Source: Candidatus Saccharibacteria bacterium oral taxon 488 (lineage in GTDB: Bacteria > Patescibacteriota > Saccharimonadia > Saccharimonadales > Saccharimonadaceae). Taken from it: DNA of 32,000 bases. The stretch lies in assembly GCA_010202845.1 (NCBI GenBank), contig CP047921.1, forward strand, positions 630,001 through 662,000, in the 5' to 3' direction. The position numbers and the translations under genes were made by a program. Position 1 is the stretch's first letter, and the number at the start of each line of letters is the position of its first letter. The notes under the pieces were generated by a model. It was not told the origin of the DNA. It saw nothing but the letters and a program-made list of their open reading frames with translations, and searched no databases. Shown piece by piece: positions 5,134 through 30,392 of the stretch.

Positions 5134-5442
5134 ATGAGCAAACTAAAATCTGAAAAGATCGTCATATCTTCGCCGCTATCGTTTAGCGGCTCGGCAAAGC
5201 GCATTTGGAAAATTACGGATGTGGACAATCCAGTGGTGAAAGCGTTGCTTAGTTTGGTGGCTGCCGCGCTCATTATGTTCGCTTGGGTTTTCGTGGCGTT
5301 TTGGTACGTGCTGATTTACGTTGTTTTTGGAATTTTGTTCATTCCGTATCGGCTACTGCGGCGAAGTAGCCGCAAGCAAAAGCAAGCAAAATTGCGGCAT
5401 CGTGAAGTGCTGGAGGCAATAGAGAAAAATCGTAACTTATAA
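5134..5442 (+). CDS. Small membrane protein (two TM helices, basic tail), function unknown
   Basis: 'LLSLVAAALIMFAWVFVAFWYVLIYVVFGILFIPY' followed by 'RRSSRKQKQAKLRHR'. TTTACA-17-TAAACT boxes are present, with the ATG 6 nt after the -10. Confidence 0.5.
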   Translation: MSKLKSEKIVISSPLSFSGSAKRIWKITDVDNPVVKALLSLVAAALIMFAWVFVAFWYVLIYVVFGILFIPYRLLRRSSRKQKQAKLRHREVLEAIEKNRNL

Positions 5443-5823
5443 CCGCCGCAACACGGTCACGCGTTTCTTATCGTAAGTTTTCTGGGATTTGTGCAGAACT
5501 TCAGAATGAGAATCAAACCAAATAGTTATATCATCCGTTAGCTTTGACAACTCGAGACCGGTTTTCGTTAATTTATATTCAACTCGCGGCGGAATCGTCG
5601 GATAGAAAAAGCGCCGGACGATGCCGGCGCGTTCTAGCTGCTTGAGGTGCTCGGTGAGCACTTTTTGAGTCACCCCCGGAAGAGAGCGGTGTAGCGCAGA
5701 ATAGCGCTTAGTCTCAGTGCCAAGCGAAAGAATGATCGCGATAGTCCATTTGCGAAACAGCAGGCTTGTCATGAAATCGCGCGAATCGGCATACTGTTTT
5801 TTGGATACAGTAGTTTTTGTCAT
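5437..5823 (-). CDS. HxlR-family winged-helix transcriptional regulator
   Basis: 'FRKWTIAIILSLGTETKRYSALHRSLPGVTQKVLTEHLKQLERAGIVRRFFYPTIPPRVEYKLTKTG' is the HxlR signature. Start moved to ATG 5823 (GGAGGT SD 4 nt upstream). The longer ORF to 5940 crosses a palindrome and has no SD. Confidence 0.8.
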   Translation of the reverse strand: MTKTTVSKKQYADSRDFMTSLLFRKWTIAIILSLGTETKRYSALHRSLPGVTQKVLTEHLKQLERAGIVRRFFYPTIPPRVEYKLTKTGLELSKLTDDITIWFDSHSEVLHKSQKTYDKKRVTVLRRL

Positions 5824-5877
5824 GGTTACCTCCCGTTGATGTAAATGTATATTTGGCGTAAAAATAGCTGATGAAAA

Positions 5878-5907
5878 AATATCTCTGGAGGGCCCTCCAG
5901 AGATATT
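5878..5907. repeat. 30-bp perfect palindrome AATATCTCTGGAGGG|CCCTCCAGAGATATT, a hairpin or operator
   Basis: Read directly. Both arms are fully complementary with no loop. On the minus strand a T6 run follows it (plus-strand AAAAAA at 5874-5879), giving the geometry of an intrinsic terminator for minus-strand transcripts. Confidence 0.9.
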
Positions 5908-6050
5908 ATGTGGCCCATCCTTAGTTATGTATTGTAACATCGCGCAACCAAGATGTCAAATAACAACTATTATTACACCTCCTTGTCTATTGTTGGTGTT
6001 GTCGCGCACTGGCTTTATATCTGATCTTATTTGTAGTACAATAATCCTAT

Positions 6051-7274
6051 ATGAATGATCGTACGCATAAAATCAATACAAACGAAGGTCTTATTGATGA
6101 GGCATTATCCCGTTCAGTAGCTGAAATTCTACCAAGCAAGAGAGAACTTAAAAAAGAACTACAAAGCGGCAAGCGATTGACGTTTTATCTAGGCATTGAT
6201 CCTACCGCCAGCTACGTTCACCTCGGACATTCGACAAACTATTTAATGCTTGAGCGCTTTCACGCCCTAGGTCATCGAATTATTGTATTGATTGGTGATT
6301 TTACGGCAATGATCGGTGATCCAAGTGATAAAACTTCAATGCGCGTGCAGCTAACGCGCGAACAGGTACTTGATAACTTAAAAACATTTAAACAACAGAT
6401 CGGAAAAATCCTAAACTTTAATGATGCCGATAATCCTATAGAATTTAAATTTAACTCAGAATGGCTTTCAAAGCTAACGTTTGAGGACTCTGTCGAGCTG
6501 GCCTCAAATTTTACGGTTCAGCAGATGCTTGAACGGGATGCATTCAAAAAAAGGGTTGCTGAGGAGAAGCCCCTTTTCGTGCATGAATTCTTCTATCCAT
6601 TAATGCAAGGGTATGATTCTGTGGCCCTAGATGTTGACGTGGAAGTGGGCGGCACTGACCAAACTTTCAATATGCTTGCTGGGCGTACACTGCTGAAACG
6701 TTACAAACAGAAGGAAAAGTTTGTAATTACGACAACTCTATTAGTTAATCCAGATACGGGCGAGAAGTTGATGAGTAAGAGCCTTGGTACTGGTGTAGGA
6801 TTGGACCTTGGCGCCAAAGAGATGTTCTTCAAGATCATGCAAATATCAGACGCCGGCATCTATCAGTGTTTCGTGGACTGTACGCGTCTATCAATGGGCG
6901 AGATTGCCGAAATAAAAAAGCGGCTTGATAGCAATGAAAATCCCCGTGACATTAAAAAAGAGCTTGCTCGAGAAGTGGTGTCTATGTACCACGGCAGTGA
7001 GGCTGCTTTTGATGCCGAAAAGCGATGGGTATCTGAAGTTAGCCATAAGAATTTAGCTCAAGATATTCATACTGTTCAAATTGGTTCTGACGAGTCAATT
7101 GTTGATTTGATAGCTCGTCTAGATATAGTTAAAAGTCGCGGCGAAGCCAGGCGTTTAATCAAGCAAAATGCTGTTAAAATTAACAACAATAGAGTAAACA
7201 ATGAGAACGCAACCCTTATTAATGGCGACATCTTGCATGTTGGGAAAAAGCATGCCTTTAAAGTGTCTGTATAG
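6051..7274 (+). CDS. tyrS: Tyrosyl-tRNA synthetase (canonical-looking copy)
   Basis: HIGH motif 'HLGH', 'GDFTAMIGDPSDK', 'YPLMQGYD', 'GGTDQTFN', KMSKS-type 'LMSKS' and a C-terminal S4-like 'SRGEARRLIKQNAVKINN'. A TACAAT box ends 8 nt before the ATG. Confidence 0.9.
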   Translation: MNDRTHKINTNEGLIDEALSRSVAEILPSKRELKKELQSGKRLTFYLGIDPTASYVHLGHSTNYLMLERFHALGHRIIVLIGDFTAMIGDPSDKTSMRVQLTREQVLDNLKTFKQQIGKILNFNDADNPIEFKFNSEWLSKLTFEDSVELASNFTVQQMLERDAFKKRVAEEKPLFVHEFFYPLMQGYDSVALDVDVEVGGTDQTFNMLAGRTLLKRYKQKEKFVITTTLLVNPDTGEKLMSKSLGTGVGLDLGAKEMFFKIMQISDAGIYQCFVDCTRLSMGEIAEIKKRLDSNENPRDIKKELAREVVSMYHGSEAAFDAEKRWVSEVSHKNLAQDIHTVQIGSDESIVDLIARLDIVKSRGEARRLIKQNAVKINNNRVNNENATLINGDILHVGKKHAFKVSV

Positions 7275-7284
7275 GTAGCTCATT

Positions 7285-7842
7285 ATGAATGAGACTGACA
7301 TCATAAATCTGCTTCGCAGAGACAATGAGTTTATGGAGGTGGCTAGAGGTATAAATTCACAAGTACCACCCGATTGTAGTTGGTGTATATTTTCTGGTTT
7401 CGTGCGCAATAAAGTGTGGGACTATATCCATGGCAATACCACTCCTACTAGAGCATCGGATATTGATGTCGCCCTCTATATGCCAGGCGACAATACGATG
7501 GCGATAAACGTCAAGCAGAAGCTAGAAGAGTTATATCCGACCTATAGTTGGGATGTTTCGAACTTCGCCTATAGCCATACTGAAAACAACGACAGCCCTT
7601 ACGTGAATTTGATCGACGGGTTGAGTAAAGAGCTCGAGACGATCACAAGTGTTGGTTTAACTCTTCGCTCAGACGGCTCTCTAGTAATAATCGCCCCTCA
7701 CGACATTGGTGATCTTGTTAAATGTATTATTCGTCCTACGCCTATCATCTATGCAAATCCAGAAAAACGACAGCTGATCGTTGATCGTATATCAAGAAAA
7801 CGCTTGCTTGAAAAGTGGCCAAAGCTACAGGTTATTATATAG
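7285..7842 (+). CDS. Nucleotidyltransferase-family protein (NTP_transf_6/DUF925-like)
   Basis: 'WCIFSGFVRNKVWDYIHG...SDIDVALY', 'WDVSNFAYSH', 'IRPTP' and 'KWPKLQV' match my recollection of the PF06042 pattern. Confidence 0.55.
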   Translation: MNETDIINLLRRDNEFMEVARGINSQVPPDCSWCIFSGFVRNKVWDYIHGNTTPTRASDIDVALYMPGDNTMAINVKQKLEELYPTYSWDVSNFAYSHTENNDSPYVNLIDGLSKELETITSVGLTLRSDGSLVIIAPHDIGDLVKCIIRPTPIIYANPEKRQLIVDRISRKRLLEKWPKLQVII

Positions 7843-9505
7843 AATTTTCGGTATCAAAAATTTTCTTGGCGTTAATTATGTAATCTATCAAATAGTTAAT
7901 GGTCTCTACAGAGCAGTTCACTCCAAGTAGAACTATACGAAATGCTACAACTGGTTTACCATTGTGGTTATAAAATGATGCCGAGGATTTGCTGAAGGCT
8001 ATCTTTGGGTTTTTTCCTTCACGATCAACAAACCATTCGTAAAAGTTGCTGGTGTATTCTGTATTTGCCGCTAATATGCTGTCATCATATAGTTCCTTAT
8101 GGTGTTCGTTCTGTACGTCGGAACCTGTAACTATGGAACGTAAGAATATGTCTGTGGTCGCGGAGTTTTTATTTTCAATAATCATACCAGCAGCATTAAT
8201 ATCTTTCTCGCGATCAACAAATGCTTCGCGCATCTCAAGTGCATGCCCCAACAGGACCTGATAACCCTCTTTGCCGATAGTTTTTAGCGTTGCCCACGTT
8301 GCGACTATATTGGCGACAGATCTTGATGTTTCAATAGTGTATATACCAGGATTGTATTCATTTTCATCATGAAACAGTGGTGTCATAATATCTTTTTGAC
8401 GCTTCAAAAAATTAAAATCATCTTTATTCTTTAGAATAACCATGCTTGAATTATAGGGCGTGTAGCCTGTCTTGTGAAAATCTACTCCAAGCGAATCAGC
8501 AAAGCAGAACTTTCTCGCCATGTTGGCGTTGTGCTGCGCGCCCTTGAGGACTCGTACACTAAAACCGAGAGGGTTCTTATCAAAATCGTAATCTATAAAA
8601 TTTAGCCACACCCAGCCCAGGACGCTATCAACATGTATGTGCGGCGTGTAGCTTAGGCTATATTCTTTAATTAGTTGTGAACGAAGTTTATATATCTCTT
8701 CTACATCATCCATACCCATGCTGGATGTGGTTCCGCCTACAGCCTCAATGCAGGCGATCTTTTTTCCGCTATCAAGCGCTCGTCGACACACTTTTTCAAG
8801 ATCTGAAAGATCAGTTGTCTGATCAATATTTGTCTTTACTTTCAGATAATTATTCTGACCAATGCCTGTCCAGTTTGCTGAAGTTTGCTGACTATAATGT
8901 GATGCTGCGTTACCTATTACTACAGTATCATTGTCAATTACACCCTCCAATGCATGTTTTGGTTTAGCCTTGGCTAGTCCTATCTTTACTGCGTATAGGT
9001 TTGTGCCTGTTCCTCCAAAAGTAAATACACCTGATGCTTTTGTAGGGTCCATTCCGGCCATCTTAGCAATAGCTGACGCACAAGCTAATTCATCCTTGAG
9101 AGCCTCGCCAGCATCTTCTCCGGTAACCGCATTACCCATATATAACGACGTTGCTACGTAAGCTGCCAAATAAACAAAGTTTGGCTGTGGAATAATATTT
9201 TTTACCATTAAGGGACTGTGTGCCTTGACTGAGCGCTGCATCTCATTGGCTACTTGTTCGACAGTAGTGCTGTGAGAAAAGTTATAACGCTCAGGTATTG
9301 CAGCTGAGCTCATAACGTCGGTTATGGAAGTGTCTGAATCCGAAGGGTAAATTGGACCGTCACCTTGTCGTGCAATCATTGCCGCTACGGCGTTTTCAAC
9401 TAGTGTTATAAGCTTACTGCTGTTGTCTCCGTTTTCGCGTAGAAATAAAGACTCTTGCATGTCTGATAAAATGTCCTGGTATCTATTTGTCATGATTTTA
9501 ACCAT
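7835..9505 (-). CDS. Group II PLP-dependent amino-acid decarboxylase (tyrosine/aromatic decarboxylase-like)
   Basis: 'FTFGGTGTNLYAVKIG', 'HIHVDSVLGW' and the Schiff-base lysine motif 'DFHKTGYTPY'. The start is uncertain (GTG 9535, ATG 9505 or ATG 9493). Confidence 0.8.
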   Translation of the reverse strand: MVKIMTNRYQDILSDMQESLFLRENGDNSSKLITLVENAVAAMIARQGDGPIYPSDSDTSITDVMSSAAIPERYNFSHSTTVEQVANEMQRSVKAHSPLMVKNIIPQPNFVYLAAYVATSLYMGNAVTGEDAGEALKDELACASAIAKMAGMDPTKASGVFTFGGTGTNLYAVKIGLAKAKPKHALEGVIDNDTVVIGNAASHYSQQTSANWTGIGQNNYLKVKTNIDQTTDLSDLEKVCRRALDSGKKIACIEAVGGTTSSMGMDDVEEIYKLRSQLIKEYSLSYTPHIHVDSVLGWVWLNFIDYDFDKNPLGFSVRVLKGAQHNANMARKFCFADSLGVDFHKTGYTPYNSSMVILKNKDDFNFLKRQKDIMTPLFHDENEYNPGIYTIETSRSVANIVATWATLKTIGKEGYQVLLGHALEMREAFVDREKDINAAGMIIENKNSATTDIFLRSIVTGSDVQNEHHKELYDDSILAANTEYTSNFYEWFVDREGKNPKIAFSKSSASFYNHNGKPVVAFRIVLLGVNCSVETINYLIDYIINAKKIFDTENSI

Positions 9506-9593
9506 TAGTTTCTTAATACTATCTAATAATACCACACTGTTATCGTTCTGATGTAGTCAAGCTAATTGTTTACTTTTATGATATAACTATACC

Positions 9594-10334
9594 ATGGTTT
9601 CCTTTTTAAGTTATAATGTTGGCGGTGCACAGCAGTACGACCATGTGCTGGCAATTGCCAGGCTACTCCATACAATAAATACATCTATTGTCTGTTTGCA
9701 AGAAGCTAAATGGGCAAATGATGAATCGTTTGTAAACGATTTTGTCAAAAAATCAGGCTATAACAACTGTCGTATATGTCTTTCGTCTCGCACAGACAAC
9801 CACTCAATCGTTCTTTCTAATCTTCCCGTACTAGGAATGATTCCATTCAACCAAATGGCAAATTCCGGCATTATAGTTGATATAATGGCGAATATGCCAG
9901 TACGTGTCGCGGCTCTTCATCTTGCTCCCTCACCCGAGCAACAACGTGTTATCGAGCTAAATTCTATCCTGGGATACCTAAGCAATGATATGAATGTCGT
10001 AATGGCGGGCGACTTTAATGCGATCGCACCCAATGAGCATGCCCCAGTTCTAGGTTTGTCTAGCTCTGCTAAGCCAGAGTCTGTAAAACATGACGCAATC
10101 CAACTACTTATTAATTCCGGTTTTCATGATATCGGGAGAGAACATACTGTCAGCCCCATAGCCACGGTACCTCTCTCTGCCGATAGGGGTGTTACGTATC
10201 AAAACCTTCGACTAGACTATTTTTTCGTTAATACCAAGCTTGCTCCATTAGTTCGTTTATACCGTGTTATTGACACGTCAAAAACTCAAAATCTATCCGA
10301 CCATCTCCCTGTTTTTATGCAGCTAGGCGATTGA
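9594..10334 (+). CDS. Endonuclease/exonuclease/phosphatase (EEP) family protein
   Basis: 'VCLQEAKW', 'MAGDFNAI' and the C-terminal 'LSDHLPVFMQL' motif. TGATATAAC ends 6 nt before the ATG. Confidence 0.8.
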   Translation: MVSFLSYNVGGAQQYDHVLAIARLLHTINTSIVCLQEAKWANDESFVNDFVKKSGYNNCRICLSSRTDNHSIVLSNLPVLGMIPFNQMANSGIIVDIMANMPVRVAALHLAPSPEQQRVIELNSILGYLSNDMNVVMAGDFNAIAPNEHAPVLGLSSSAKPESVKHDAIQLLINSGFHDIGREHTVSPIATVPLSADRGVTYQNLRLDYFFVNTKLAPLVRLYRVIDTSKTQNLSDHLPVFMQLGD

Positions 10335-10359
10335 CGTAGTGCGGTATTTATATTACAAT
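10331..10359 (+). promoter_or_regulatory. Sigma70-type promoter TTGACG-17-TACAAT for the TyrRS paralog; implies a leaderless mRNA
   Basis: Hexamers at 10331-10336 and 10354-10359 with a 17-nt spacer. The ATG at 10366 lies 6 nt after the -10. Confidence 0.55.
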
Positions 10360-10365
10360 CGGACT

Positions 10366-11616
10366 ATGAGTTTTAGTGAGAAGTGGTTTAATCGTAGCAA
10401 TGAATCTCTTGAGGGTATTTCAACTGATGAATTCATCGGTTACGTTCAACCGAAAACACAAGAAGCAATAACAATGGATGGCATACGTGATCAACTTGAC
10501 TCCGGGCATCCTTTGAATGTTAAGTTTGGCACTGACCCAACTGGGCCAGATTTACACCTAGGTCATGTTGTTCCAATTCGTGTTCTTGATTTGTTTAGTC
10601 GTGCGGGTCATAATATTGACCTTGTATTTGGTGACTTTACAGCAAAGGTCGGTGACCCTAGTGGACGATCTAATGAGCGCCCTTTACTTTCTGATTCAAC
10701 AATCTCTGAAAACGTTTCGACTTTCCGTGATCAAGTAGATAAATATTTCGATACACACACCTCAAATGTAAAAGTTTCCAATAATAGTGCCTGGCTTGAT
10801 GAAATGTCACTATCTGACGTCTTTGAATACTTACAGGAAACGAATTTAAGTGAGGCTATGCAGCGTCGTGATTTCCGCAAGCGCATACTAGCTGGCAAGG
10901 CTATCAGTTTAGCAGAAGCGTTTTATCCAACAATGATGGGTATCGACTCAGTTGAACTCAAAACAGACATTGAGATTGGCGGAATTGACCAGCTATTAAA
11001 CTTTCAACAAACACGTAAGGTTCAACGTAACCAAGGTCAAGTTCCAGAAGATGTTATTATGACTCCAATTCTTGAAGGAACGTCTGGAGGTGGTGTAAAA
11101 ATGAGTAAGTCTCTTGGTAACTACGTACCTCTCAACGCTACGCCAGATGAAGTATATGGCAAGATGATGTCTATTCCTGATGATATCGTATTGAACTATA
11201 TAACAGCTTTTGCGCCCGTGCATACTGACGAGGTTTCCGGGCTGAAGCAAAGCATCGAATCTAGACCACTTGAGATGAAGAAACAACTGGCAACTTATTT
11301 AGCCGCCTTGTCAATTTCTAATATGGATGATGGTCTTGCCGCGAGAGAGCGGTTTGAGCGGCGCTTTGCAAGAAAAGAGTTTGCCGAGGATGATATGGAG
11401 AAACTTGTGAGCGGATCTGCTTTAATTGATTCACTTACCGCGACTGGTAAATATAAGTCGCGTAATGAAATTCGTCGGTTAGCAAAACAGGGTGGAATTA
11501 AGCTCGACGGTACATCTCTTTCAGAAGACGAGGTTATGACGACTACTCCCCCTATCGGATCTATTGTTACTGTTGGCAAGCGAACTATTTTTCGTATTGC
11601 CAAGTCCGAGGAATGA
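10366..11616 (+). CDS. Divergent tyrosyl-tRNA-synthetase paralog with an altered amino-acid pocket
   Basis: 'HLGH', 'GDFTAKVGDPSGR', 'GGIDQLLN', exact 'KMSKS' and S4-like 'SRNEIRRLAKQGGIKLDG'. However, it has 'KFGTDPT' and 'YPTMMGID' where TyrRS has Y...DPT and Y..LQ.YD. Confidence 0.85.
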   Translation: MSFSEKWFNRSNESLEGISTDEFIGYVQPKTQEAITMDGIRDQLDSGHPLNVKFGTDPTGPDLHLGHVVPIRVLDLFSRAGHNIDLVFGDFTAKVGDPSGRSNERPLLSDSTISENVSTFRDQVDKYFDTHTSNVKVSNNSAWLDEMSLSDVFEYLQETNLSEAMQRRDFRKRILAGKAISLAEAFYPTMMGIDSVELKTDIEIGGIDQLLNFQQTRKVQRNQGQVPEDVIMTPILEGTSGGGVKMSKSLGNYVPLNATPDEVYGKMMSIPDDIVLNYITAFAPVHTDEVSGLKQSIESRPLEMKKQLATYLAALSISNMDDGLAARERFERRFARKEFAEDDMEKLVSGSALIDSLTATGKYKSRNEIRRLAKQGGIKLDGTSLSEDEVMTTTPPIGSIVTVGKRTIFRIAKSEE

Positions 11617-11619
11617 TTG

Positions 11620-12501
11620 ATGGAGTTTACGCACCTAACGAAGCGACAGAATGAGGAGTCTATTGCCCCAGAAACTATTGACATTAGCTTAACGGGACGT
11701 TGCCAACTTGATTGTGCGTGGTGTTGGGGTGAAAAGCATACTATAGGTGTTAATCATGAAGCTGATGATTGGAACAATCTTCTTAACAATTTTTCATCTG
11801 AAGGCACCTCCCACGTTGTATTTACCGGAGGTGAACCTCTAATGGTTCCTTTTTTGCCAGATGTAGCGAAACATGCAAAGAATATTGGATTACGCACTAC
11901 TCTTTCGACCAACGGCATATTGTTGCCTAAACGCCATAAATCTATTATGCCGCACATTGATGACTTAGGATTACCTCTTGACGGTCCAACCAGTGGTGTC
12001 AATAAAAATATGCGTAAGGGTCGTATAGATAACTTCCTGAAAGTTATAGAAAGTGCAATGCTGGTCCAGGAAGAATATCCAGACACCTCGCTTACGATTC
12101 GTACTGTTATTGCCCGACCAAATATCAATTCTGTACCAGATATCCCTGAAGTTCTTGAACGGGAGGGGGTCGACCTTAGTAGATTGCGCTATAAAATGTA
12201 TCAAGTGGAACCGATTGGACCTCGCGCTACCGAAACAGCTACTGATTACTGGATGGTTGATGAGGCAGAGTGTTTAGAGGTTGCTAATCAAATCTCTCAA
12301 CGCTACCCAAATCTGCAACACACCCTTCAGCTTTATCGAAACACATCTGGAAGATACTATCAGATAATGCCTCAAGGTAACGCCTATGGAACATATATTG
12401 ATAGCAAAGGTACTCCGCATATGGTAGAGTTGGGGAATCCAATGACAGATTTTCGCAATGCTCTCGGCATGATAGCTACTCGCTACGCGTGCCTGTATTG
12501 A
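11620..12501 (+). CDS. Radical SAM enzyme (compact; single 4Fe-4S CX3CX2C motif)
   Basis: 'GRCQLDCAWCWG', 'VVFTGGEPLM' and 'LSTNG'. A GAGGAA SD lies upstream. The gene starts 4 nt after the TyrRS-paralog stop. Confidence 0.85.
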   Translation: MEFTHLTKRQNEESIAPETIDISLTGRCQLDCAWCWGEKHTIGVNHEADDWNNLLNNFSSEGTSHVVFTGGEPLMVPFLPDVAKHAKNIGLRTTLSTNGILLPKRHKSIMPHIDDLGLPLDGPTSGVNKNMRKGRIDNFLKVIESAMLVQEEYPDTSLTIRTVIARPNINSVPDIPEVLEREGVDLSRLRYKMYQVEPIGPRATETATDYWMVDEAECLEVANQISQRYPNLQHTLQLYRNTSGRYYQIMPQGNAYGTYIDSKGTPHMVELGNPMTDFRNALGMIATRYACLY

Positions 12502-13538
12502 TTCATAGCTTGACGCATATGATCATTGTAATCACGAATCTGCTTATATGTTTCGCTGAATCGTGGGTAAGTATCAAGATACGTCCAAATATCTTTGGAA
12601 TATATGGAAAGTTGACTCGTTAGTTCAGGATTTCGAGGCAGAGGTAATATCCAAAAATGCACACTCGCTGGCTTAAGATATTTTTCGTCGTGGTAAATAT
12701 GCGAGGTCTCGACCCCTAATTCAGCAACGTTTTCCTTAACTCGCTTAGCAATAATCATGCAATGATCAAAGTATTCTTGCGGCATCTTATCAATACTGCG
12801 ATAATGTTTTTTTGGACTAACTATATAGAACCCAGGTATTGCATATTTTGCGTCTTGTCGAACTACTAAATCCTCGTCTTCATACACTGGAGCCAGAACG
12901 TCATCTATTTCATTTGTAAATTTATCTAAAAACTCACCCTTTGACATAGTGTCATCACATAAAAAGGCTTGGAAGTTCTTTGCGCCACCAATACAAACAT
13001 AGTACTTTTTTCCTACCGGTGCCATAGGTAGTTCTAGTTCATCGTCAATTTCAAGGATTTCGTCAATGGTAGTCTCGTGCCATTCCTGGTCATGCTTTTT
13101 GTCGCCACTGGGTTGATAAGGAATTGCGTCATAGCCCCTTGTTTGATCCTCAAAACACCGTTCAGTAGCATTGTCATATTTTATCACATCTTGCAAGTCA
13201 TGGGCGTTATAGCTTTTAATATACGATTCAATGTGCGGCTGATACACTTCTACGTCAAAACGACTTGCCAATCTACCGATATGAAGCGGCAATGTAATAC
13301 TTGTCACGGGTTGTTCTGTATACTCTTCAACATAAAGTCCACACAATGCTATATCAAGACTTTTTAATCCAATGCGTAATTTACGTTGATAAGACGCTAG
13401 CAATCTTACCTCATCGTCAGATAGATCCGTAAATCGCTCTACGCCGCTCACGGGATTAATCGCATACATACCAGGAACATAGCTGTCTTGCGCCTGTTGT
13501 ATGGTAAAATGCTCACCCAGTTTCCTCGTATTACGCAA
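12483..13538 (-). CDS. Tandem degenerate HIT-like (GalT/Apa-like architecture) protein
   Basis: The C-terminal half 'IPGFYIVSPKKHYRSIDKM...ASVHFWILPL' resembles a HIT domain with only the central His of HxHxH. The N-terminal half 'VPGMYAINPVSGVERFTDL...ITLPLHIGRL' repeats the pattern. Confidence 0.45.
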   Translation of the reverse strand: MRNTRKLGEHFTIQQAQDSYVPGMYAINPVSGVERFTDLSDDEVRLLASYQRKLRIGLKSLDIALCGLYVEEYTEQPVTSITLPLHIGRLASRFDVEVYQPHIESYIKSYNAHDLQDVIKYDNATERCFEDQTRGYDAIPYQPSGDKKHDQEWHETTIDEILEIDDELELPMAPVGKKYYVCIGGAKNFQAFLCDDTMSKGEFLDKFTNEIDDVLAPVYEDEDLVVRQDAKYAIPGFYIVSPKKHYRSIDKMPQEYFDHCMIIAKRVKENVAELGVETSHIYHDEKYLKPASVHFWILPLPRNPELTSQLSIYSKDIWTYLDTYPRFSETYKQIRDYNDHMRQAMNQYRHA

Positions 13539-14799
13539 TTTTGTGGTTTCCTTTCTTTTGCAGCTTTACAATTATTTCCGCTGCTTTTGTTTGCAGATCA
13601 GATTCTGACTTTATATTGGTTGCATCGTGTATTATCGTAGCGATATGTTCACGTATATTATTGACATCCAGTTTAGACCTAGTGTATAGAGATATTAAGC
13701 TTGAGGGCGATTGTTCTACGATTGTGTTTATTGCCGCCAAAGGAGTCTGCTGGTGTGAGGCGCTCGCTATGGCATTAGTAGATAAGTTATCATCCATAAG
13801 CGCAAGTAATCCATTCATTACATAATGGTCTATTTTTTCACGATCACCGCTAGACCAACATTGCCTGACAAGTATTGACTCAAAGCGATTGATCACTCGG
13901 TACCTCGCTTCATTACGGCGTCGTACTACACATGCTGAAATGTCATGAAGTATGTCAATTTCGGTTGGATATATATCTGCAATAAGATGTCCTAGATCGT
14001 TTGGGCGAATGCAGTGTTTTTGCATTGATCGTACGGGCATCTCTGCGTCGAATACGATCTGTTCAATAATATTTCGTAAATCGCTATTATCAGTAAGATA
14101 TCCTGTCATATCTTTGAATGTTTGCTCATAACGAACAAGTTGGGGTTCTTCTAACTTATATTCAATTATCTTACTCAATAGTTCTTCAAGGATATGTCTA
14201 TCAAATAAATAGCTCCAGTTTAGCAAGAAGTTCGTGTACCACAAGCGATTGAGTCGAACTGGCATATTTAGCTTGCTAAGCACAACATCCTCGAGGTCTA
14301 GCAAATACATCTCGTTATTAACCTCTATAATATTGCGCGGCAGGAACCCTGAGTGTACAATGCCGCGACCCATTAGGAATTCAATAATTTCAATGTATTG
14401 TTTGGCTTCCAGCTTAGGAAAGGCTGCCTCATAGGATAATGTATTTAAGTCCTTACCTATAAATGGCAAAACTAAGTACGCTTGTTTAATATTTCCCACC
14501 ACATCAATTATATCAGGCACTACTACTCGTAGAGTCATCCCGCAGATATTTGTGCCGTCGATAATCTTACTGGTGCGAGCTGACTTATTTAACTCATCCC
14601 TAGCCTTGATTCGATCGCATCGTTTTGCTATATAGCATATACCGTTATATTCGAATTTACGAAAACGATCTTCTACGTCGTAAAACCAAACACCAGGATT
14701 ATATTGTTCATTATTATTGCTATAGGCTTGTTGTGTACGTTCTTCTAGGGTTAAGGCACGGTTCATGTAAATACGCTTGCTTTTCTTATGGGTGACCAT
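13531..14799 (-). CDS. Protein-kinase-like fold protein lacking the catalytic Asp, with a C-terminal helical domain
   Basis: 'CYIAKR' (beta3 Lys), 'GIVHSGFLPRNII' (HxD..N loop with Asp replaced by Gly) and 'YLLDLEDV' (DFG-equivalent Asp). A TATAAT box ends 7 nt before the ATG at 14799. Confidence 0.45.
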   Translation of the reverse strand: MVTHKKSKRIYMNRALTLEERTQQAYSNNNEQYNPGVWFYDVEDRFRKFEYNGICYIAKRCDRIKARDELNKSARTSKIIDGTNICGMTLRVVVPDIIDVVGNIKQAYLVLPFIGKDLNTLSYEAAFPKLEAKQYIEIIEFLMGRGIVHSGFLPRNIIEVNNEMYLLDLEDVVLSKLNMPVRLNRLWYTNFLLNWSYLFDRHILEELLSKIIEYKLEEPQLVRYEQTFKDMTGYLTDNSDLRNIIEQIVFDAEMPVRSMQKHCIRPNDLGHLIADIYPTEIDILHDISACVVRRRNEARYRVINRFESILVRQCWSSGDREKIDHYVMNGLLALMDDNLSTNAIASASHQQTPLAAINTIVEQSPSSLISLYTRSKLDVNNIREHIATIIHDATNIKSESDLQTKAAEIIVKLQKKGNHKIA

Positions 14800-15208: not shown

Positions 15209-16015
15209 TTACAACTCATCTAATGAAAGAAGCTCACCAGACTCGTCAATATTCGACCAAATAGCAGAACTCTCACGCACCAAGTTCTCAGCCGTCGCTG
15301 TATATACCTCAACTTCATCATCCAAGTCAAACCGACTGCGCACGGCATGAGCAGCGCGCCGCAAGCGGTTTTCTGTGGCTGGATTTTCCAGCAAAAATAA
15401 GAACCTCGGTAGGTTGCTGTTCGTCGCGTCCCAGCCGCCATCATCGAAAAATTCCATATAATTTACCAGACGGCGATTGATGGCGCTAGGCGGCATGTCT
15501 TTAGGTATGACATCAAAGAAAAATCGCCGCAACCCATCGGCTGTTTTGAGCGACAAAAATGCGTCGGGCGGATTAGCCGGAAAATAGCTATAAAGCGCCA
15601 TTTCGCGCCGCAAAAATACTTTTAGCGGTGGATATTGGTGCTGTAGTTTATTGGTGCACGAATACACATTAACTACATGATTAACGAATGATTGACCAAC
15701 GACTTTGTCGCGGTAGCTCGCCTTGATGATGGCGTTGGTAACGCGTTCGCTGCCGTAAATCAATTGCAGTTGCTTAAGTCCTTTTGGTGTCAAATAATAC
15801 GCTGCCGGCACACCCCGCAATTTATAGCTTTTGTCATATCGTCTAGCCACAAAACCATGTTTCATCAGTACATTCAACTTTTCAAACAAATTTGAACCCG
15901 ACTTAATACCCAGACTATCTGCCAACAATTGACGACTACCGAACCGATATTTGTATAACGTTTCCAGGATGTCTATCTGTCCCTGCTTGAGCGCTGAACG
16001 TTTGTCTATTTTCAT
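15209..16015 (-). CDS. Replication-relaxation (Replic_Relax, PF13814-like) family protein
   Basis: N-terminal wHTH pattern 'GQIDILETLYKYRFGSRQLLADSLG...LNVLMKHGFVARR...AAYYLTPKGLKQL', plus 'PDAFLSL' and 'FFDVIP' later in the protein. Start moved to ATG 16015 (GAAAGG 6 nt upstream). Confidence 0.55.
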   Translation of the reverse strand: MKIDKRSALKQGQIDILETLYKYRFGSRQLLADSLGIKSGSNLFEKLNVLMKHGFVARRYDKSYKLRGVPAAYYLTPKGLKQLQLIYGSERVTNAIIKASYRDKVVGQSFVNHVVNVYSCTNKLQHQYPPLKVFLRREMALYSYFPANPPDAFLSLKTADGLRRFFFDVIPKDMPPSAINRRLVNYMEFFDDGGWDATNSNLPRFLFLLENPATENRLRRAAHAVRSRFDLDDEVEVYTATAENLVRESSAIWSNIDESGELLSLDEL

Positions 16016-16156
16016 TATCAGCCTTTCACGATTCCTTTCTAGTATATTTATATAGAAAGAAGAGAAAAATAGCAATATATAACAGTATTTTTATGGATGA
16101 ATTATACTGTATATCGATATTCGGTATATTTTACATCATAAAATTGCTAAAAACTA

Positions 16157-16532: not shown

Positions 16533-16715
16533 ATGGCGCGACCAAAAGGAAGTAAAAATAAACCAAAAGCCCCGCTGATGAAGCAATTTTCGTTCACGAC
16601 CGAGCAGCGGATTAGGCTGGTGGCAAATTTAATCGTCGAGAAAATCACCGAAGATGGCGCGTTTGCCAAAAAGCTAATTACGATACTGGAGGATGATAAA
16701 AATGTCTCCAAATAA
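16533..16715 (+). CDS. Small DNA-binding-like protein with an HMGA-type AT-hook N-terminus; possible recombination directionality factor
   Basis: 'MARPKGSKNKPK' nearly matches the HMGA AT-hook core 'GRPKGSKNK'. An AGGAGGGA SD lies upstream. Its 3' end overlaps the recombinase start by 14 nt. Confidence 0.45.
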   Translation: MARPKGSKNKPKAPLMKQFSFTTEQRIRLVANLIVEKITEDGAFAKKLITILEDDKNVSK

Positions 16716-18438
16716 TCAGCCGAGAATTGGTTTGCTGGCGATACGGGTTTCTTCTGACAAGCAAGGTCTTGATGGCGACTCGCCCGAGGCCCAGCGCGAA
16801 CAAGGCGAAGCTTACGCCAAGGCGCACAATATCATAATTACCGAGACGATTATTTTGCTTGAATCGGCGTCACACGAAACGCAGCCGATGCAAAAAGTAA
16901 TCGACGTTTGCAAGGACAAAAGCAAAGGTTTTCAAGTTGTGCTGATTAAGTCAATCGACCGTTTTACGCGCGGTGGCGGAGATTATTATTCGCCGTTGAA
17001 ACGACAGTTGACGCGCCTAGGCATCGCCCTTGAGGATATGTACGGCGTGATTGGCAAGCAGCAAATAAACACGCTGGAGCACACTGGATTTAAGTATTAT
17101 TGGAGCGAGTTTAACCCGACGCAAAAGTCGGAGTATTTGGAGGCAGAGCGCGCCAAAGACGAGATGCGCGACATCATGAGCCGGATGATTGGCGCGGAAA
17201 TTCGCTACACTCAGCTAGGCTATTGGATGCGTCGTCCGCACTATGGTTTTCGTAGTGTCAAGGTGGATACAAAAAATGGTCGACGTACGATCTTGAAGCC
17301 TGATGAGAACGAGGCGAAGTTTATCATCAAGCTTTTTGAAATGCGCGCCGCTCATATTTATACCAATCAGCAAATCGCCGACGAACTAAATTCTATGGGC
17401 TTTCGCTCGCGCGTTACGATTGTGCGCGACAAATACGACCGAACCAAAATTAAGTGGCAAATTGGCGGCAAGCAAATGACCGCCAAAATGATCGACCAGT
17501 ACGCCAGTAAACTGGTTTATTGCGGCATCATCAAAGAAAAATGGACGCATGACCAGCCAGTCAAGGCGCAGTTTGATGGATTGGTTAGCATCGAGCTTTT
17601 TAATGAAGCGAATCGCGGGCGGATTTTTGTGGAGATTGACAGTCGCGACATGATAACCATCAAGCGTAGAGCCGTGCCGGAGCATTTGAAAAATAAACAA
17701 ATTTACAATCCAGAATATCCGTATAAACAGGTCGTTGCTTGTCCGAAGTGCGGCAAAACTCTTTCTGGCAGCGCTTCGCGTGGCAAGATGGGCGCGTATT
17801 ATCCGGCGTATCATTGTAGTCGCAACGGGCATTATTTTCGCGTACCCAAGCCCGAATTCGACAAGACGCTCGAGGATTTTGTACGGACTATTACCGTAAA
17901 GCCGGAGTACGTTGACGACATTATCGCTGCTATTGCCGAGCTGTGGCGCGAACGCCAAGCAAAGCAGCTAGAAGCCAATCAGCAGCGCCTAGAGCACCGC
18001 CAGAGCCTGCAAAACCAAATTCGGGCGACCGTGGACAGAATGCGCGTTGTTACGAGCGAAACGGCACTTGCGTACCTAGAGGAAGACATTATTAGCGCCG
18101 AAAACGAATTAGCAAACCTAGACAAAGAAATCGCCAATCAGCCCAACCTACAAGCCGAATTTGACCAAGTCTTGCAATACGCCAAATATATTTTGGAACA
18201 CCTGCCAGAACTACTGCTTGACCTCTGTAATCCCTTGCGGAAAGCCGCCTTTTTCGCCGCTATCTTCAATAAAGTCCCAACCTATGATGAAATAAAATTT
18301 GGAACTCACAAAAACAGCTCGCTACCAGAGGTAAACGAGCTGTTCCGTATCCGAATGGATGATAAATCCTTTATTGGTGACCTCACGGAGAATCGAACTC
18401 CGATTGCCAGGATGAAAACCTGGTGTCCTGACCGTTAG
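16702..18438 (+). CDS. Large serine recombinase (resolvase/invertase N-domain, recombinase domain, zinc ribbon, coiled coil)
   Basis: 'IGLLAIRVSSDKQG' (catalytic Ser), 'LIKSIDRFTRGG', zinc ribbon 'CPKCGKTLSG...YHCSRNGH' and a coiled coil 'QRLEHRQSLQNQIRATV...'. GGAGGA lies 8 nt before the ATG at 16702. Confidence 0.9.
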   Translation: MSPNNQPRIGLLAIRVSSDKQGLDGDSPEAQREQGEAYAKAHNIIITETIILLESASHETQPMQKVIDVCKDKSKGFQVVLIKSIDRFTRGGGDYYSPLKRQLTRLGIALEDMYGVIGKQQINTLEHTGFKYYWSEFNPTQKSEYLEAERAKDEMRDIMSRMIGAEIRYTQLGYWMRRPHYGFRSVKVDTKNGRRTILKPDENEAKFIIKLFEMRAAHIYTNQQIADELNSMGFRSRVTIVRDKYDRTKIKWQIGGKQMTAKMIDQYASKLVYCGIIKEKWTHDQPVKAQFDGLVSIELFNEANRGRIFVEIDSRDMITIKRRAVPEHLKNKQIYNPEYPYKQVVACPKCGKTLSGSASRGKMGAYYPAYHCSRNGHYFRVPKPEFDKTLEDFVRTITVKPEYVDDIIAAIAELWRERQAKQLEANQQRLEHRQSLQNQIRATVDRMRVVTSETALAYLEEDIISAENELANLDKEIANQPNLQAEFDQVLQYAKYILEHLPELLLDLCNPLRKAAFFAAIFNKVPTYDEIKFGTHKNSSLPEVNELFRIRMDDKSFIGDLTENRTPIARMKTWCPDR

Positions 18439-18449
18439 ACGATGAGGCC
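18375..18449 (-). tRNA. tRNA-Glu (anticodon TTC), CCA encoded
   Basis: The reverse complement GGCCTCATCGTCTAACGGTCAGGACACCAGGTTTTCATCCTGGCAATCGGAGTTCGATTCTCCGTGAGGTCACCA folds as a cloverleaf with a 7-bp acceptor stem, anticodon loop TTTTCAT and a GGAGTTCGATTCTCC T-arm. Confidence 0.9.
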
Positions 18450-30378: not shown

Positions 30379-30392
30379 TACTAAATAACTTG

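What the first reader, a model, noticed from the sequence alone, without database searches (positions are those of the whole stretch)
10366..11616. Second TyrRS keeps its catalytic motifs but has a remodelled tyrosine pocket (Tyr34->Phe and Gln173->Met equivalents)
I aligned this protein by eye to TyrRS-1 in this window and to Bacillus stearothermophilus TyrRS numbering. TyrRS-1 keeps 'FYLGIDPT' (Tyr34), 'GDPS' (Asp78) and 'YPLMQGYD' (Tyr169/Gln173/Asp176). The paralog has 'KFGTDPT' and 'YPTMMGID'. It retains HLGH, an exact KMSKS, GGxDQ and the C-terminal S4-like tRNA-binding domain. In established TyrRS structures Tyr34 and Asp176 bind the phenol OH, and Gln173 binds the alpha-amino group. 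The enzyme therefore looks catalytically alive but with altered substrate recognition. It could be a resistance allele, a synthetase for a Tyr/Phe analogue, or an adenylate-forming biosynthetic enzyme. It has its own near-consensus promoter and appears leaderless.
Basis: partly seen in the sequence, partly recalled or inferred. Interest (0 to 1): 0.65.

Follow-up and report, generated by a model that had tools for sequence, protein, structure and literature searches.

The report
Accessory tyrosyl-tRNA synthetase in a mobile module
The gene is an intact second tyrosyl-tRNA synthetase from a little-studied subfamily with one changed substrate-contact residue, and it sits in a conserved gene module of unknown product next to a decarboxylase and the ordinary synthetase.

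Summary
The ORF at 10366..11616 is a full-length, three-domain TyrRS of the Thermus-like type. Half of the reported remodelling is a register error. The residue aligned with Tyr34 is Lys53, not Phe, and Lys is the documented alternative phenol-OH reader (Lys41 in T. thermophilus TyrRS). Gln173->Met (Met191) is real and comes with Tyr175->Ile.

This is a subfamily trait, not a private change. 101 of the 120 nearest homologues have Met, as do 32 of 150 representatives clustered at 50% identity. Every other catalytic, tyrosine-binding and anticodon-binding residue checked is kept.

TyrRS-1 is the ordinary Saccharibacteria type. TyrRS-2 is accessory. It belongs to an 8-gene module (6051..14799): TyrRS-1, a nucleotidyltransferase, a PLP decarboxylase, an EEP phosphoesterase, TyrRS-2, a viperin/BlsE-like radical-SAM enzyme, a HIT-like protein and a kinase-like protein. 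The module recurs at about 66% identity in other Saccharibacteria with different flanks. The trio of Met-type TyrRS, decarboxylase and canonical TyrRS recurs in a distant Patescibacterium.

The conserved promoter and leaderless start are supported.

The likeliest role is a pathway-dedicated TyrRS paralogue. Altered amino-acid specificity is not shown. I found no description in the literature I could search.

The parts
10366..11616 (+). TyrRS-2: a 416-aa type-2 (Lys41-type) tyrosyl-tRNA synthetase paralogue of the 'Met-191' subfamily
   Evidence: ORF. Pfam and NCBIfam hits. PDB hits to 6bqy, 6byq and 1h3e at about 1e-58. AF2 model plus Foldseek match to TyrRS-tRNA complexes.
10331..10359 (+). 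Promoter-like TTGACG-17-TACAAT, 6 nt upstream of the ATG (leaderless layout). The -35 box overlaps the EEP stop codon.
   Evidence: The layout is conserved in L041, L001, L003 and L005 despite divergent spacers.
10522..10524 (+). Lys53, the equivalent of Bst Tyr34 and Tth Lys41 (phenol-OH reader).
   Evidence: PMC1934993.
10555..10566 (+). HIGH motif (HLGH)
   Evidence: Invariant in 120/120 homologues.
10936..10947 (+). Met191-Gly-Ile193-Asp194. Met replaces the alpha-ammonium-binding Gln173 and Ile replaces Tyr175. The phenol-binding Asp176 equivalent is kept.
11098..11112 (+). KMSKS loop
   Evidence: Invariant in 120/120.
11179..11181 (+). Asp272, the equivalent of T. thermophilus Asp259 that reads anticodon base G34
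   Evidence: PMC1934993.
11398..11601 (+). C-terminal S4-like tRNA-binding domain (residues ~345-412). Differences among near-identical relatives cluster at residues 384-414.
   Evidence: Pfam S4 is weak at 0.0019. The model and Foldseek match cover the full length. Variation is shown.
6051..7274 (+). TyrRS-1: the canonical Saccharibacteria-type TyrRS (Tyr34, Gln173), linked to the module
7285..7842 (+). NTP_transf_6 nucleotidyltransferase (module gene)
   Evidence: PF06042 at 7.7e-34. Conserved in L001 and L003.
7835..9535 (-). Group-II PLP-dependent amino-acid decarboxylase (DFHK PLP-lysine motif). It is the most constant partner of Met-type TyrRS.
   Evidence: Found next to a Met-type TyrRS in window, L001, L003, L005, L007 and L043.
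9594..10334 (+). Endonuclease/exonuclease/phosphatase-family protein (module gene)
   Evidence: PF03372 at 5.4e-12. Conserved in L001 and L003.
11620..12501 (+). Small radical-SAM enzyme (CQLDCAWC), viperin/BlsE/MoaA-like. Its ATG is 3 nt after the TyrRS-2 stop.
12483..13538 (-). 351-aa HIT-superfamily-like protein with a degenerate triad (PAS-x-H294-F-W)
   Evidence: PF01230 at 1.3e-5..
13531..14799 (-). 422-aa protein with weak protein-kinase-like features (K59, E69, H149-x-G-F-L-P-R-N, D168). No family hit.
16693..18449 (.). Serine recombinase (16693..18438, +) abutting tRNA-Glu (18375..18449, -). The GC content shifts here, so this is the probable edge of a mobile island.

Best explanation
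TyrRS-2 is a catalytically competent accessory paralogue of the Thermus-like (type-2, Lys41-type) TyrRS family. Its subfamily is marked by Met in place of the alpha-ammonium-binding Gln173, by Ile in place of Tyr175, and by about six co-varying positions. It is not the cell's ordinary TyrRS, which is the TyrRS-1 type.

It is a fixed component of an accessory, probably mobile, 8-gene module. The constant core of that module is this paralogue plus a group-II PLP amino-acid decarboxylase, often with a canonical TyrRS alongside. Nucleotide-handling enzymes surround the core.

Most likely it still binds tyrosine or a very close analogue (Lys53/Asp194), makes the adenylate (HIGH/KMSKS) and docks tRNA-Tyr (Asp272, S4-like domain). 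It would then feed activated tyrosine, as Tyr-AMP or Tyr-tRNA-Tyr, into the module's pathway towards a tyrosine-derived, nucleotide-linked product. The neighbouring canonical TyrRS would keep, or insulate, translation. This is the logic of the ascamycin AcmD/AcmF pair and of SbzA.

Shown: the fold, the motifs, the subfamily signature, the module conservation and the accessory status. Inferred: the substrate, tRNA use, the product and the division of labour between the two enzymes.
For: Intact TyrRS.
- Searches support this.
- The Lys alternative for phenol recognition and Asp259 as the G34 reader come from PMC1934993.

Subfamily signature.
- define it.

Accessory status.
- TyrRS-1-type proteins form protein clusters of 508, 218 and 169 members. 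They occur without the module on 1.02-Mb, 0.83-Mb and 0.22-Mb contigs.
- Met-type clusters are small.
- Paenactinomyces carries a Met-type copy in a transposase/Imm6/HNH region.

Module conservation.
- The module is conserved at 57-70% identity in L001 and L003 with unrelated flanks.
- The decarboxylase is adjacent in four independent arrangements.
- A canonical TyrRS is adjacent in window, L001, L003, L005 and the distant L043.

Nucleotide-type neighbours.
- The window has NTP_transf_6, a HIT-like protein, an EEP protein and a radical-SAM enzyme. The radical-SAM enzyme's best solved match is BlsE, from blasticidin S biosynthesis (2.8e-9). It also hits pVip models.
- Other loci carry NUDIX, SAM_HAT, NT5C, 2H-phosphoesterase, ADK and NDK-like proteins.

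Tyrosine-metabolism neighbours elsewhere.
- These include prephenate dehydrogenase, an amine oxidase and an aminotransferase.

Precedent.
- Clusters with an aaRS paralogue plus an extra canonical aaRS copy are known: ascamycin AcmF/AcmD, and SbzA (PMC12945691).

Operon structure.
- TyrRS-2 has its own conserved promoter.
- The radical-SAM ATG lies 3 nt after the TyrRS-2 stop.
Against: - No product, no recognisable aminoacyl-tRNA-dependent transferase and no exporter is present in the window module.
- Patescibacteria are not known for such pathways.
- Canonical TyrRS copies linked to the module are not a separate clade from unlinked ones. TyrRS-1 may therefore simply be the native housekeeping gene rather than an immunity copy.
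- A distant Met-type member (L097) lies between trpS, LeuRS, ksgA and glyA. It may be an ordinary sole TyrRS.
- The module partners other than the decarboxylase vary between lineages.
- PADLOC, PHROGs and the literature searches gave no functional handle.
Confidence: 0.4

Rival explanations
1. Back-up or insulated isozyme. TyrRS-2 is a genuine Tyr-tRNA-Tyr synthetase with different kinetics or selectivity. It keeps translation supplied while the adjacent decarboxylase pathway drains tyrosine, or while a tyrosine analogue or TyrRS inhibitor is present. This is the same logic as tyrS in the lactic-acid-bacteria tyramine clusters, B. subtilis TyrZ, or a self-resistance aaRS copy.
For: - All TyrRS determinants are kept.
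- The Met variant occurs in a housekeeping-like context in L097.
- Gln-type members of the same clade sit in the same context in L007.
- Met and Gln both occur at the homologous position of TrpRS-like genes: YPILMAAD in L023, and YPILQAAD in the verified trpS of L097.
- aaRS genes beside the decarboxylase for the same amino acid are described as 'a general feature' of tyramine and histamine clusters (PMC3315439).
- TyrZ is a more selective second TyrRS (PMC9437257).
Against: - It does not explain why a canonical TyrRS is also linked.
- It does not explain why radical-SAM, HIT, nucleotidyltransferase, kinase-like and EEP genes travel with it.
- There is no Tyr/tyramine antiporter and no T-box.
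- The decarboxylase is far below the tyrosine-decarboxylase equivalog cutoff: 52.5 bits against 905.
Confidence: 0.3
2. Changed amino-acid specificity. The Met191/Ile193 pocket activates something other than L-tyrosine. Candidates are a Tyr analogue altered at the alpha position (D-Tyr, beta-Tyr, N-methyl-Tyr, 4-hydroxyphenyl-lactate) or another polar aromatic amino acid.
For: - Gln173 is one of the three alpha-ammonium ligands and is Gln in all 112 Q-type representatives.
- The substitution is accompanied by co-varying changes at Q166, A183, L211, 216, 220 and E228.
- The YPxLMGID motif resembles the TrpRS motif YPxLMAAD.
- Neighbours that could make an analogue occur in related loci: prephenate dehydrogenase, an aminotransferase, radical-SAM enzymes and a methyltransferase.
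Against: - The side-chain readers Lys53 and Asp194 are unchanged. So are the second-shell Asn140, Trp143, Thr92 and Asp97, and Tyr187 and Gln209.
- Gln- and Thr-containing members share the clade and the context.
- No dedicated tRNA is present.
- Half of the claimed remodelling (Tyr34->Phe) is an alignment error.
Confidence: 0.12
3. No special role. This is a redundant, horizontally acquired second TyrRS of another subtype, carried as cargo. Its neighbours are coincidental.
For: - The region is low in GC: 41% against 52% for the housekeeping flank.
- It lies between type IV secretion genes, a Replic_Relax protein and a serine recombinase next to tRNA-Glu.
- aaRS duplicates are common (PMC9437257).
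Against: - Gene order is conserved at about 66% protein identity in unrelated flanks.
- The trio recurs in a distant Patescibacterium at 46% identity.
- The promoter is conserved and the radical-SAM ATG lies 3 nt after the TyrRS-2 stop.
Confidence: 0.1
4. Non-catalytic use. The protein acts as a tRNA-Tyr- or tyrosine-binding sensor or regulator of the module, or as a heterodimer partner of TyrRS-1.
For: - A sensor role was once proposed for tyrS in tyramine clusters (PMC3315439).
- TyrRS is an obligate dimer and two paralogues are co-encoded. This is my own inference.
Against: - Every catalytic residue is invariant over 120 homologues, which argues for catalysis.
- The sensor idea was not borne out in Enterococcus.
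Confidence: 0.05

Closest known systems
Type-2 bacterial TyrRS (T. thermophilus TyrRS 1H3E; H. pylori 6BYQ; A. baumannii 6BQY; B. subtilis TyrZ type)
   Same: - These are the best sequence and structure matches.
- Lys occupies the Tyr34 position.
- HIGH, KMSKS, Asp78, Tyr169, Asp176, Gln195 and the anticodon-reading Asp are shared.
- The three-domain build with an S4-like C-terminal domain is shared.
   Different: - Gln173 is Met and Tyr175 is Ile, with about six co-varying signature positions.
- The gene is encoded in an accessory module rather than as the housekeeping gene.
tyrS of the tyramine (TDC) clusters of Enterococcus and Lactobacillus
   Same: A TyrRS gene sits beside a PLP-dependent aromatic amino-acid-type decarboxylase. 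The linked canonical copy may be the cell's own tyrS (PMC3315439).
   Different: - There is no T-box leader.
- There is no tyrP antiporter or nhaC in the module.
- The decarboxylase is not a member of the TDC equivalog.
- Two different TyrRS genes and five further enzymes are present.
aaRS paralogue plus extra canonical aaRS in aminoacyl-nucleoside clusters (ascamycin AcmF/AcmD; SbzA of SB-203208)
   Same: Two homologues of the same aaRS lie in one accessory cluster together with nucleoside or nucleotide-type enzymes. The divergent copy keeps aaRS motifs (PMC12945691).
   Different: - Those are Streptomyces AlaRS and IleRS cases with known products.
- Here no product or sulfamate chemistry is evident.
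- The host is a Patescibacterium.
- The linked canonical TyrRS is not a distinct 'resistant' clade.
Bacterial TrpRS specificity motif YPxLMAAD
   Same: Met-type TyrRS has Y-[GP]-x-L-M-G-I-D, with Met at the homologous position.
   Different: - The overall family, the Lys/Asp phenol readers and the S4-like domain are those of TyrRS. The trpS model scores only 21 bits.
- TrpRS itself alternates Met and Gln at this position.
Prokaryotic viperins (pVip) and BlsE, for the radical-SAM gene immediately downstream of TyrRS-2
   Same: It is a small radical-SAM enzyme with a CxxxCxxC motif. It hits PADLOC pVip models at 76 bits. Its best solved relative is BlsE.
   Different: It is far below the NCBIfam viperin cutoff (64.8 bits against 180). 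It is not filed as a viperin.

Membership tests
Bacterial tyrosyl-tRNA synthetase (TIGR00234 / PF00579, type 2) | Whole-protein score above the curated cutoff | tested here: met
   TIGR00234 scores 257.6 bits against a cutoff of 113.8. PF00579 hits at 1.6e-52.
Bacterial tyrosyl-tRNA synthetase (TIGR00234 / PF00579, type 2) | Class I signature motifs HIGH and KMSKS, plus GGxDQ | tested here: met
   HLGH, KMSKS and GGIDQ are present. They are invariant in 120/120 homologues.
Bacterial tyrosyl-tRNA synthetase (TIGR00234 / PF00579, type 2) | Phenol-OH readers: universal Asp (Bst Asp176) plus Tyr34 or Lys (Tth Lys41) | tested here: met
   Asp194 and Lys53 are present. The rule is stated in PMC1934993.
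Bacterial tyrosyl-tRNA synthetase (TIGR00234 / PF00579, type 2) | Alpha-ammonium ligands Asp78, Tyr169 and Gln173 | tested here: not met
   Asp97 and Tyr187 are kept, but Gln173 is replaced by Met191. This is why I call it a variant subfamily rather than a standard member.
Bacterial tyrosyl-tRNA synthetase (TIGR00234 / PF00579, type 2) | Three-domain architecture with an anticodon-binding domain (Asp reading G34) and a C-terminal S4-like domain | tested here: met
   Asp272 is kept in 120/120. The AF2 model has pLDDT 89.4 and pTM 0.86. Foldseek gives TM 0.77-0.84 to 9sfq, 9sdf and 1h3e over about 435 columns.
Bacterial tyrosyl-tRNA synthetase (TIGR00234 / PF00579, type 2) | Tyrosine activation and tRNA-Tyr charging | not testable with these tools
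   This needs ATP-PPi exchange and aminoacylation assays.
TDC-cluster tyrS (lactic acid bacteria) | Adjacent tyrosine decarboxylase of the TdcA family | tested here: inconclusive
   A group-II PLP decarboxylase lies in the same module, separated from TyrRS-2 only by the EEP gene, and recurs with it. It scores 52.5 bits against a cutoff of 905 for TIGR03811.
TDC-cluster tyrS (lactic acid bacteria) | T-box leader, tyrP antiporter and nhaC | tested here: not met
   Rfam finds no T-box in the window. There is no transporter among the module genes.
aaRS-paralogue / resistant-aaRS biosynthetic clusters (AcmD/AcmF, SbzA) | Two homologues of the same aaRS in one accessory cluster | tested here: met
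   Seen in window, L001, L003, L005 and L043.
aaRS-paralogue / resistant-aaRS biosynthetic clusters (AcmD/AcmF, SbzA) | An aminoacyl-nucleoside product, with the extra canonical copy resistant to it | not testable with these tools
   Linked canonical copies do not form their own clade, which does not favour a specialised resistant allele.
Prokaryotic viperin defence (neighbouring radical-SAM gene) | Score above the curated viperin cutoff | tested here: not met
   NF038283 scores 64.8 bits against 180. PADLOC pVip scores 76 bits. The best PDB match is BlsE.
Pyrrolysine-like genetic-code-expansion cassette | A dedicated tRNA gene next to the aaRS and the biosynthetic genes | tested here: not met
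   There is no tRNA inside the module in the window or in 8 related loci.

The most novel reading that the evidence does not exclude
Episymbiotic Saccharibacteria and other Patescibacteria carry a mobile module in which a specialised TyrRS paralogue works with a PLP decarboxylase, a viperin/BlsE-like radical-SAM enzyme, a HIT-like transferase, a nucleotidyltransferase, a phosphoesterase and a pseudokinase-like protein. Together they would build a tyrosine-derived aminoacyl-nucleotide or nucleoside. This could be a TyrRS-directed toxin used against hosts or competitors, or a signalling nucleotide. The co-encoded canonical TyrRS would act as supplier and/or immunity factor.
Probability: 0.25. 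Interest if true: 0.8.

Novelty: new variant of a known kind. Interest (0 to 1): 0.5.

Why it matters
If the module makes a tyrosine-derived nucleotide-linked compound, it would be a rare case of secondary or offensive metabolism in ultra-small episymbiotic bacteria. It would also extend the AcmF/SbzA theme, in which aaRS paralogues are re-used as pathway enzymes, to class Ic TyrRS.

Even the conservative reading has value. It defines a sizeable natural TyrRS subfamily that dispenses with the otherwise near-universal alpha-ammonium-binding Gln173. That is of interest for TyrRS enzymology, for D-Tyr and analogue discrimination, and for engineering orthogonal TyrRS variants.

It also corrects an annotation habit. 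Both genes are simply called 'tyrosine--tRNA ligase' in public records.

Tried and rejected
- **GTDB genome scan with the Met-type alignment.** The derived patterns (GGxDQLLN, KMSKS) were too generic. No census of TyrRS copy number per genome was therefore possible.
- **Metagenome scan with the single protein.** It returned only three near-identical copies of the same island.
- **IMG/VR scans.** There is no Met-type TyrRS in viral contigs. Phage TyrRS-like genes keep Gln.
- **PADLOC and PHROGs.** TyrRS-2 and its partners are not in known defence or phage families. The only exceptions are the weak pVip-like hit of the radical-SAM gene and TyrRS-2's own hit to the PHROGs tyrosyl-tRNA synthetase family.
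- **Rfam.** There is no T-box or other leader RNA.
- **Pyl-like code-expansion cassette.** Rejected because no dedicated tRNA is present.
- **Single-sequence prediction of the HIT-like protein.** The model was unusable at pLDDT 31, so the 'GalT/Ap4A-phosphorylase-like two-lobed HIT' idea stays untested.
- **Unknown 170-216-aa family next to Met-type TyrRS in L005, L009, L011 and L042.** hhalign against three window module proteins (the NTP_transf_6, HIT-like and kinase-like proteins), and a search against the PDB, found no relation.
- **Literature searches.** I looked for this subfamily, for a TyrRS/viperin link and for a Saccharibacteria tyrosine decarboxylase. Nothing specific turned up.
- **T4SS genes as proof of an ICE.** Downgraded, because Patescibacteria T4SS loci are mostly resident and lack relaxases (PMC12102498).
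Full report
**1. What is at the coordinates**

An ORF runs from ATG 10366 to TGA 11614-11616 and encodes 416 aa. An in-frame GTG at 10339 would add 9 residues. The N-termini of homologues support 10366.

The protein hits Pfam tRNA-synt_1b at 1.6e-52. It scores 257.6 bits on the NCBIfam tyrS equivalog TIGR00234, whose cutoff is 113.8. Its best solved relatives are the type-2 TyrRS of A. baumannii (6bqy), H. pylori (6byq) and T. thermophilus (1h3e), at E about 1e-58.

An AlphaFold2 model built on a 32-sequence alignment has pLDDT 89.4 and pTM 0.86. It superposes over its whole length on T. thermophilus TyrRS-tRNA complexes with TM 0.77-0.84. The catalytic, helical anticodon-binding and C-terminal S4-like domains are therefore all present.

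The quoted motifs are real. KFGTDPTGPDLHLGH lies at 10522-10566, YPTMMGIDS at 10924-10950 and KMSKS at 11098-11112.

**2. The two claimed substitutions**

BLASTP against TyrRS-1, HMMER against solved structures, and a 244-sequence MAFFT alignment all agree. Lys53 lies opposite Bst Tyr34, and Phe54 lies opposite Cys35. 'Tyr34->Phe' is therefore a one-residue register error.

The Lys is not a remodelling either. Solved type-2 enzymes have it: VKLGADPT in T. thermophilus, IKAGFDPT in 6bqy and VKAGFDPT in 6byq. PMC1934993 states that the tyrosine hydroxyl is read by a universal Asp plus 'either tyrosine ... or lysine (Lys41 in TthTyrRS)'.

It is in fact TyrRS-1 that departs from its closest solved relatives, by having Tyr at this position.

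The second substitution is real. Met191 stands where every solved TyrRS shown and all 120 TyrRS-1-type proteins have Gln173. The neighbouring Tyr175 is Ile193.

The Tth sequence agrees with the alignment printed.

**3. A subfamily trait, not a private change**

Among the 120 nearest homologues, the position is Met in 101, Gln in 15 and Thr in 4. These homologues are 45-96% identical. The named ones are mostly Saccharibacteria and other Patescibacteria, plus Paenactinomyces and a Fervidobacterium MAG.

Position 175 is Ile, Leu or Met in all 120, and position 34 is Lys in all 120. The following are all invariant or nearly so:
- Asp38, Thr40, His45, His48, Thr73, Asp78, Arg86
- Asn123, Trp126, Tyr169, Asp176, Gly192, Asp194, Gln195
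- KMSKS
- the G34-reading Asp (Tth Asp259)

In a HMMER search of 1.84 billion representatives clustered at 50% identity, 901 proteins match at E<=1e-30. Of the best 150, 32 have Met and 112 have Gln. Met co-varies with Q166, A183, L211, position 216, position 220 and E228.

The motif Y-[GP]-x-L-M-G-I-D resembles the TrpRS motif YPxLMAAD. TrpRS-like genes themselves alternate Met and Gln at this position. L023 has YPILMAAD, and the verified trpS of L097 has YPILQAAD. So the exchange need not change the amino acid recognised.

**4. Which of the two is the ordinary enzyme**

TyrRS-1-type proteins are the common Saccharibacteria TyrRS. Their protein clusters have 508, 218 and 169 members. They occur without any of the module genes on 1.02-Mb, 0.83-Mb and 0.22-Mb contigs.

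Met-type clusters are small. In an isolate genome of Paenactinomyces the Met-type gene sits among transposase, HNH and Imm6 genes. Several other Patescibacteria genomes carry canonical Tyr34/Gln173 enzymes. TyrRS-2 is therefore the accessory copy.

One caveat remains. A distant Met-type member (P0393, 38% identical) lies between trpS, LeuRS, ksgA, glyA and rpmG. It may be that organism's only TyrRS.

**5. The module**

The genes from 6051 to 14799 are:
- TyrRS-1
- NTP_transf_6
- a 566-aa group-II PLP decarboxylase (minus strand)
- an EEP phosphoesterase
- TyrRS-2
- a 294-aa radical-SAM enzyme
- a 351-aa HIT-like protein (minus strand)
- a 422-aa kinase-like protein (minus strand)

The same eight genes, in the same order but with TyrRS-1 on the opposite strand, occur at 35-70% protein identity in two other Saccharibacteria (L001 on a 695-kb contig, and L003). 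Their outer flanks are unrelated.

Three more distant loci tell the same story.
- In L005, a Met-type TyrRS sits beside a decarboxylase, a prephenate dehydrogenase, SAM_HAT, NT5C, a canonical TyrRS and a NUDIX-2H fusion.
- In L007, a Gln-type member of the clade is followed by the decarboxylase, a cupin and a 2H phosphoesterase.
- In L043, from a non-Saccharibacteria Patescibacterium (46% identity), the order is B12-radical-SAM, Met-type TyrRS, decarboxylase, canonical TyrRS, amine oxidase, APH kinase.

An all-against-all comparison of ten contexts finds the decarboxylase family in six loci. It finds NUDIX in six and a canonical TyrRS in five. An unknown family of 170-216 aa lies directly beside the Met-type gene in four.

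No tRNA gene lies inside any module.

The radical-SAM enzyme is viperin-like by PADLOC (76 bits). It is far below the NCBIfam viperin cutoff (64.8 bits against 180). Its best solved relative is BlsE, from blasticidin S biosynthesis.

The decarboxylase resembles aromatic amino-acid, diaminobutyrate and tyrosine decarboxylases, but it belongs to none of the curated equivalogs.

**6. Transcription**

TTGACG-17-TACAAT lies at 10331-10359 and ends 6 nt before the ATG. Such sites are no more frequent in the region than chance.

However, the same -35/-10/6-nt/ATG layout is preserved before the orthologues in L041, L001, L003 and L005, while the spacers differ. The non-Saccharibacteria loci L042 and L043 show Shine-Dalgarno-like sequences instead.

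The radical-SAM ATG (11620) follows the TyrRS-2 stop by 3 nt and is preceded by GAGGAA. This suggests the two genes are translated from one transcript.

**7. Mobility**

The module is 41% GC, while the housekeeping flank (folD, murA, glyA) is 52-56% GC. The following genes surround it:
- T4SS genes (a VirB4-like ATPase, PrgI, a pilin/VirB6 fusion) upstream
- a Replic_Relax protein downstream
- a serine recombinase whose 3' end abuts tRNA-Glu at 18375-18449

This looks like an integrated element. However, T4SS loci in Patescibacteria are mostly resident and lack relaxases (PMC12102498), so I treat mobility as probable, not proven.

Canonical TyrRS copies linked to the module do not form their own clade. 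Unlinked P0143 is 85-87% identical to linked copies, and unlinked P0122 is 82% identical to TyrRS-1. Identities among linked canonical copies track those among their Met-type partners. This fits co-inheritance and argues against a specialised 'resistant' lineage of TyrRS-1.

**8. Interpretation**

Some things are shown. TyrRS-2 is an intact TyrRS of a distinct Met-191 subfamily. It is accessory, and it is embedded in a conserved module whose steady partners are a PLP decarboxylase and, often, a canonical TyrRS.

The rest is inferred. TyrRS-2 most likely still activates tyrosine and binds tRNA-Tyr. The substrate, tRNA use and product are not established.

I rank the roles as follows.
- **A pathway-dedicated supplier or transferase of activated tyrosine (0.40).** This is the only reading that accounts for both the second TyrRS and the nucleotide-handling enzymes. 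It has direct precedent in AcmD/AcmF and SbzA (PMC12945691).
- **A back-up or insulated isozyme (0.30).** The precedents are tyrS in tyramine clusters (PMC3315439) and TyrZ (PMC9437257).
The side-chain readers and second shell are untouched, and Gln-type members share the clade and the context.
- **Coincidental cargo (0.10).**
- **A non-catalytic role (0.05).**

**9. Novelty**

In the searchable literature I found nothing on this subfamily or module. Public records call both genes 'tyrosine--tRNA ligase'.

I rate it a new variant of a known kind with moderate interest. The headline claim of a remodelled tyrosine pocket is largely deflated. The conserved two-TyrRS module is a real lead, and it can be tested.

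Noticed in passing
window 6051..7274 (TyrRS-1), KMSKS region: TyrRS-1 and all 120 of its nearest relatives have K-[LM]-M-S-K-S. The first Lys of the KMSKS loop is replaced by Leu or Met, and a Lys sits one residue upstream. The 'canonical' Saccharibacteria TyrRS therefore has the less canonical loop, while TyrRS-2 has an exact KMSKS.
   Followed up: partly
window 16693..18449: The 3' end of a serine recombinase gene abuts or overlaps tRNA-Glu(TTC) on the opposite strand, exactly where GC rises from about 41-46% to about 52%. Together with Replic_Relax (15209..16075) and the T4SS genes (124..4528), this suggests an integrated mobile element of at least 18 kb. Its left end lies outside the window.
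   Followed up: partly
window 6051..14799 compared with L040: Between the window and a 94-98% identical relative, synonymous divergence is 0.40 for TyrRS-1 and 0.22 for the radical-SAM gene. For the other module genes it is only 0.02-0.06. This points to recombination or mosaicism inside the module.
   Followed up: no
window 11515..11607 (TyrRS-2 residues 384-414): Amino-acid differences between the window and its three near-identical relatives cluster in the last 30 residues of the S4-like domain. The catalytic domain is almost unchanged.
   Followed up: no
L005:9245-9760, L009:9262-9825, L011:7097-7726(-), L042:11263-11913: An uncharacterised protein family of 170-216 aa lies directly beside Met-type TyrRS in four non-window loci. 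Its conserved features are W..R..PKPY, VDDV and LP..K. It has no Pfam, NCBIfam or PDB match and no detectable relation to the three window module proteins I compared it with.
   Followed up: partly
L011:9810-11468(-), L042:13131-14363(-): NUDIX-EPSP-synthase (enolpyruvyl-transferase) fusion proteins, together with a protein of about 255 aa, recur next to Met-type TyrRS in a Paenactinomyces genome and in a second genome assembly whose taxon I did not identify (L042, GCA_054013255.1). This is a second type of neighbourhood for the subfamily.
   Followed up: no
window 12483..13538 (-) and 13531..14799 (-): The HIT-like protein keeps only one His of the triad (PAS-x-H294-F-W) and has a long conserved N-terminal half. 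The kinase-like protein keeps a Lys, a Glu, an Asn and an Asp (K59, E69, N156, D168) that resemble kinase catalytic residues. However, it has Gly where the catalytic Asp of the HRD motif would be (H149-x-G-F-L-P-R-N). Both look like atypical enzymes.
   Followed up: partly
IMG/VR loci L046, L049-L062, L079: Many phage or jumbo-phage contigs encode shortened TyrRS-like proteins (about 360-390 aa). They keep Lys34 and Gln173 but have Val in place of the alpha-ammonium ligand Tyr169 (VPILQGWDS).
   Followed up: no
window 30390..30830 (+) and 30910..31350 (-): Two convergently oriented paralogous type IV pilin genes have near-identical N-terminal prepilin segments.
   Followed up: no
window 5437..5940 (-): An HxlR-family winged-helix regulator is divergently placed upstream of TyrRS-1. 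An HxlR gene also lies about 5 kb from the unlinked TyrRS-1 orthologue in L016.
   Followed up: no
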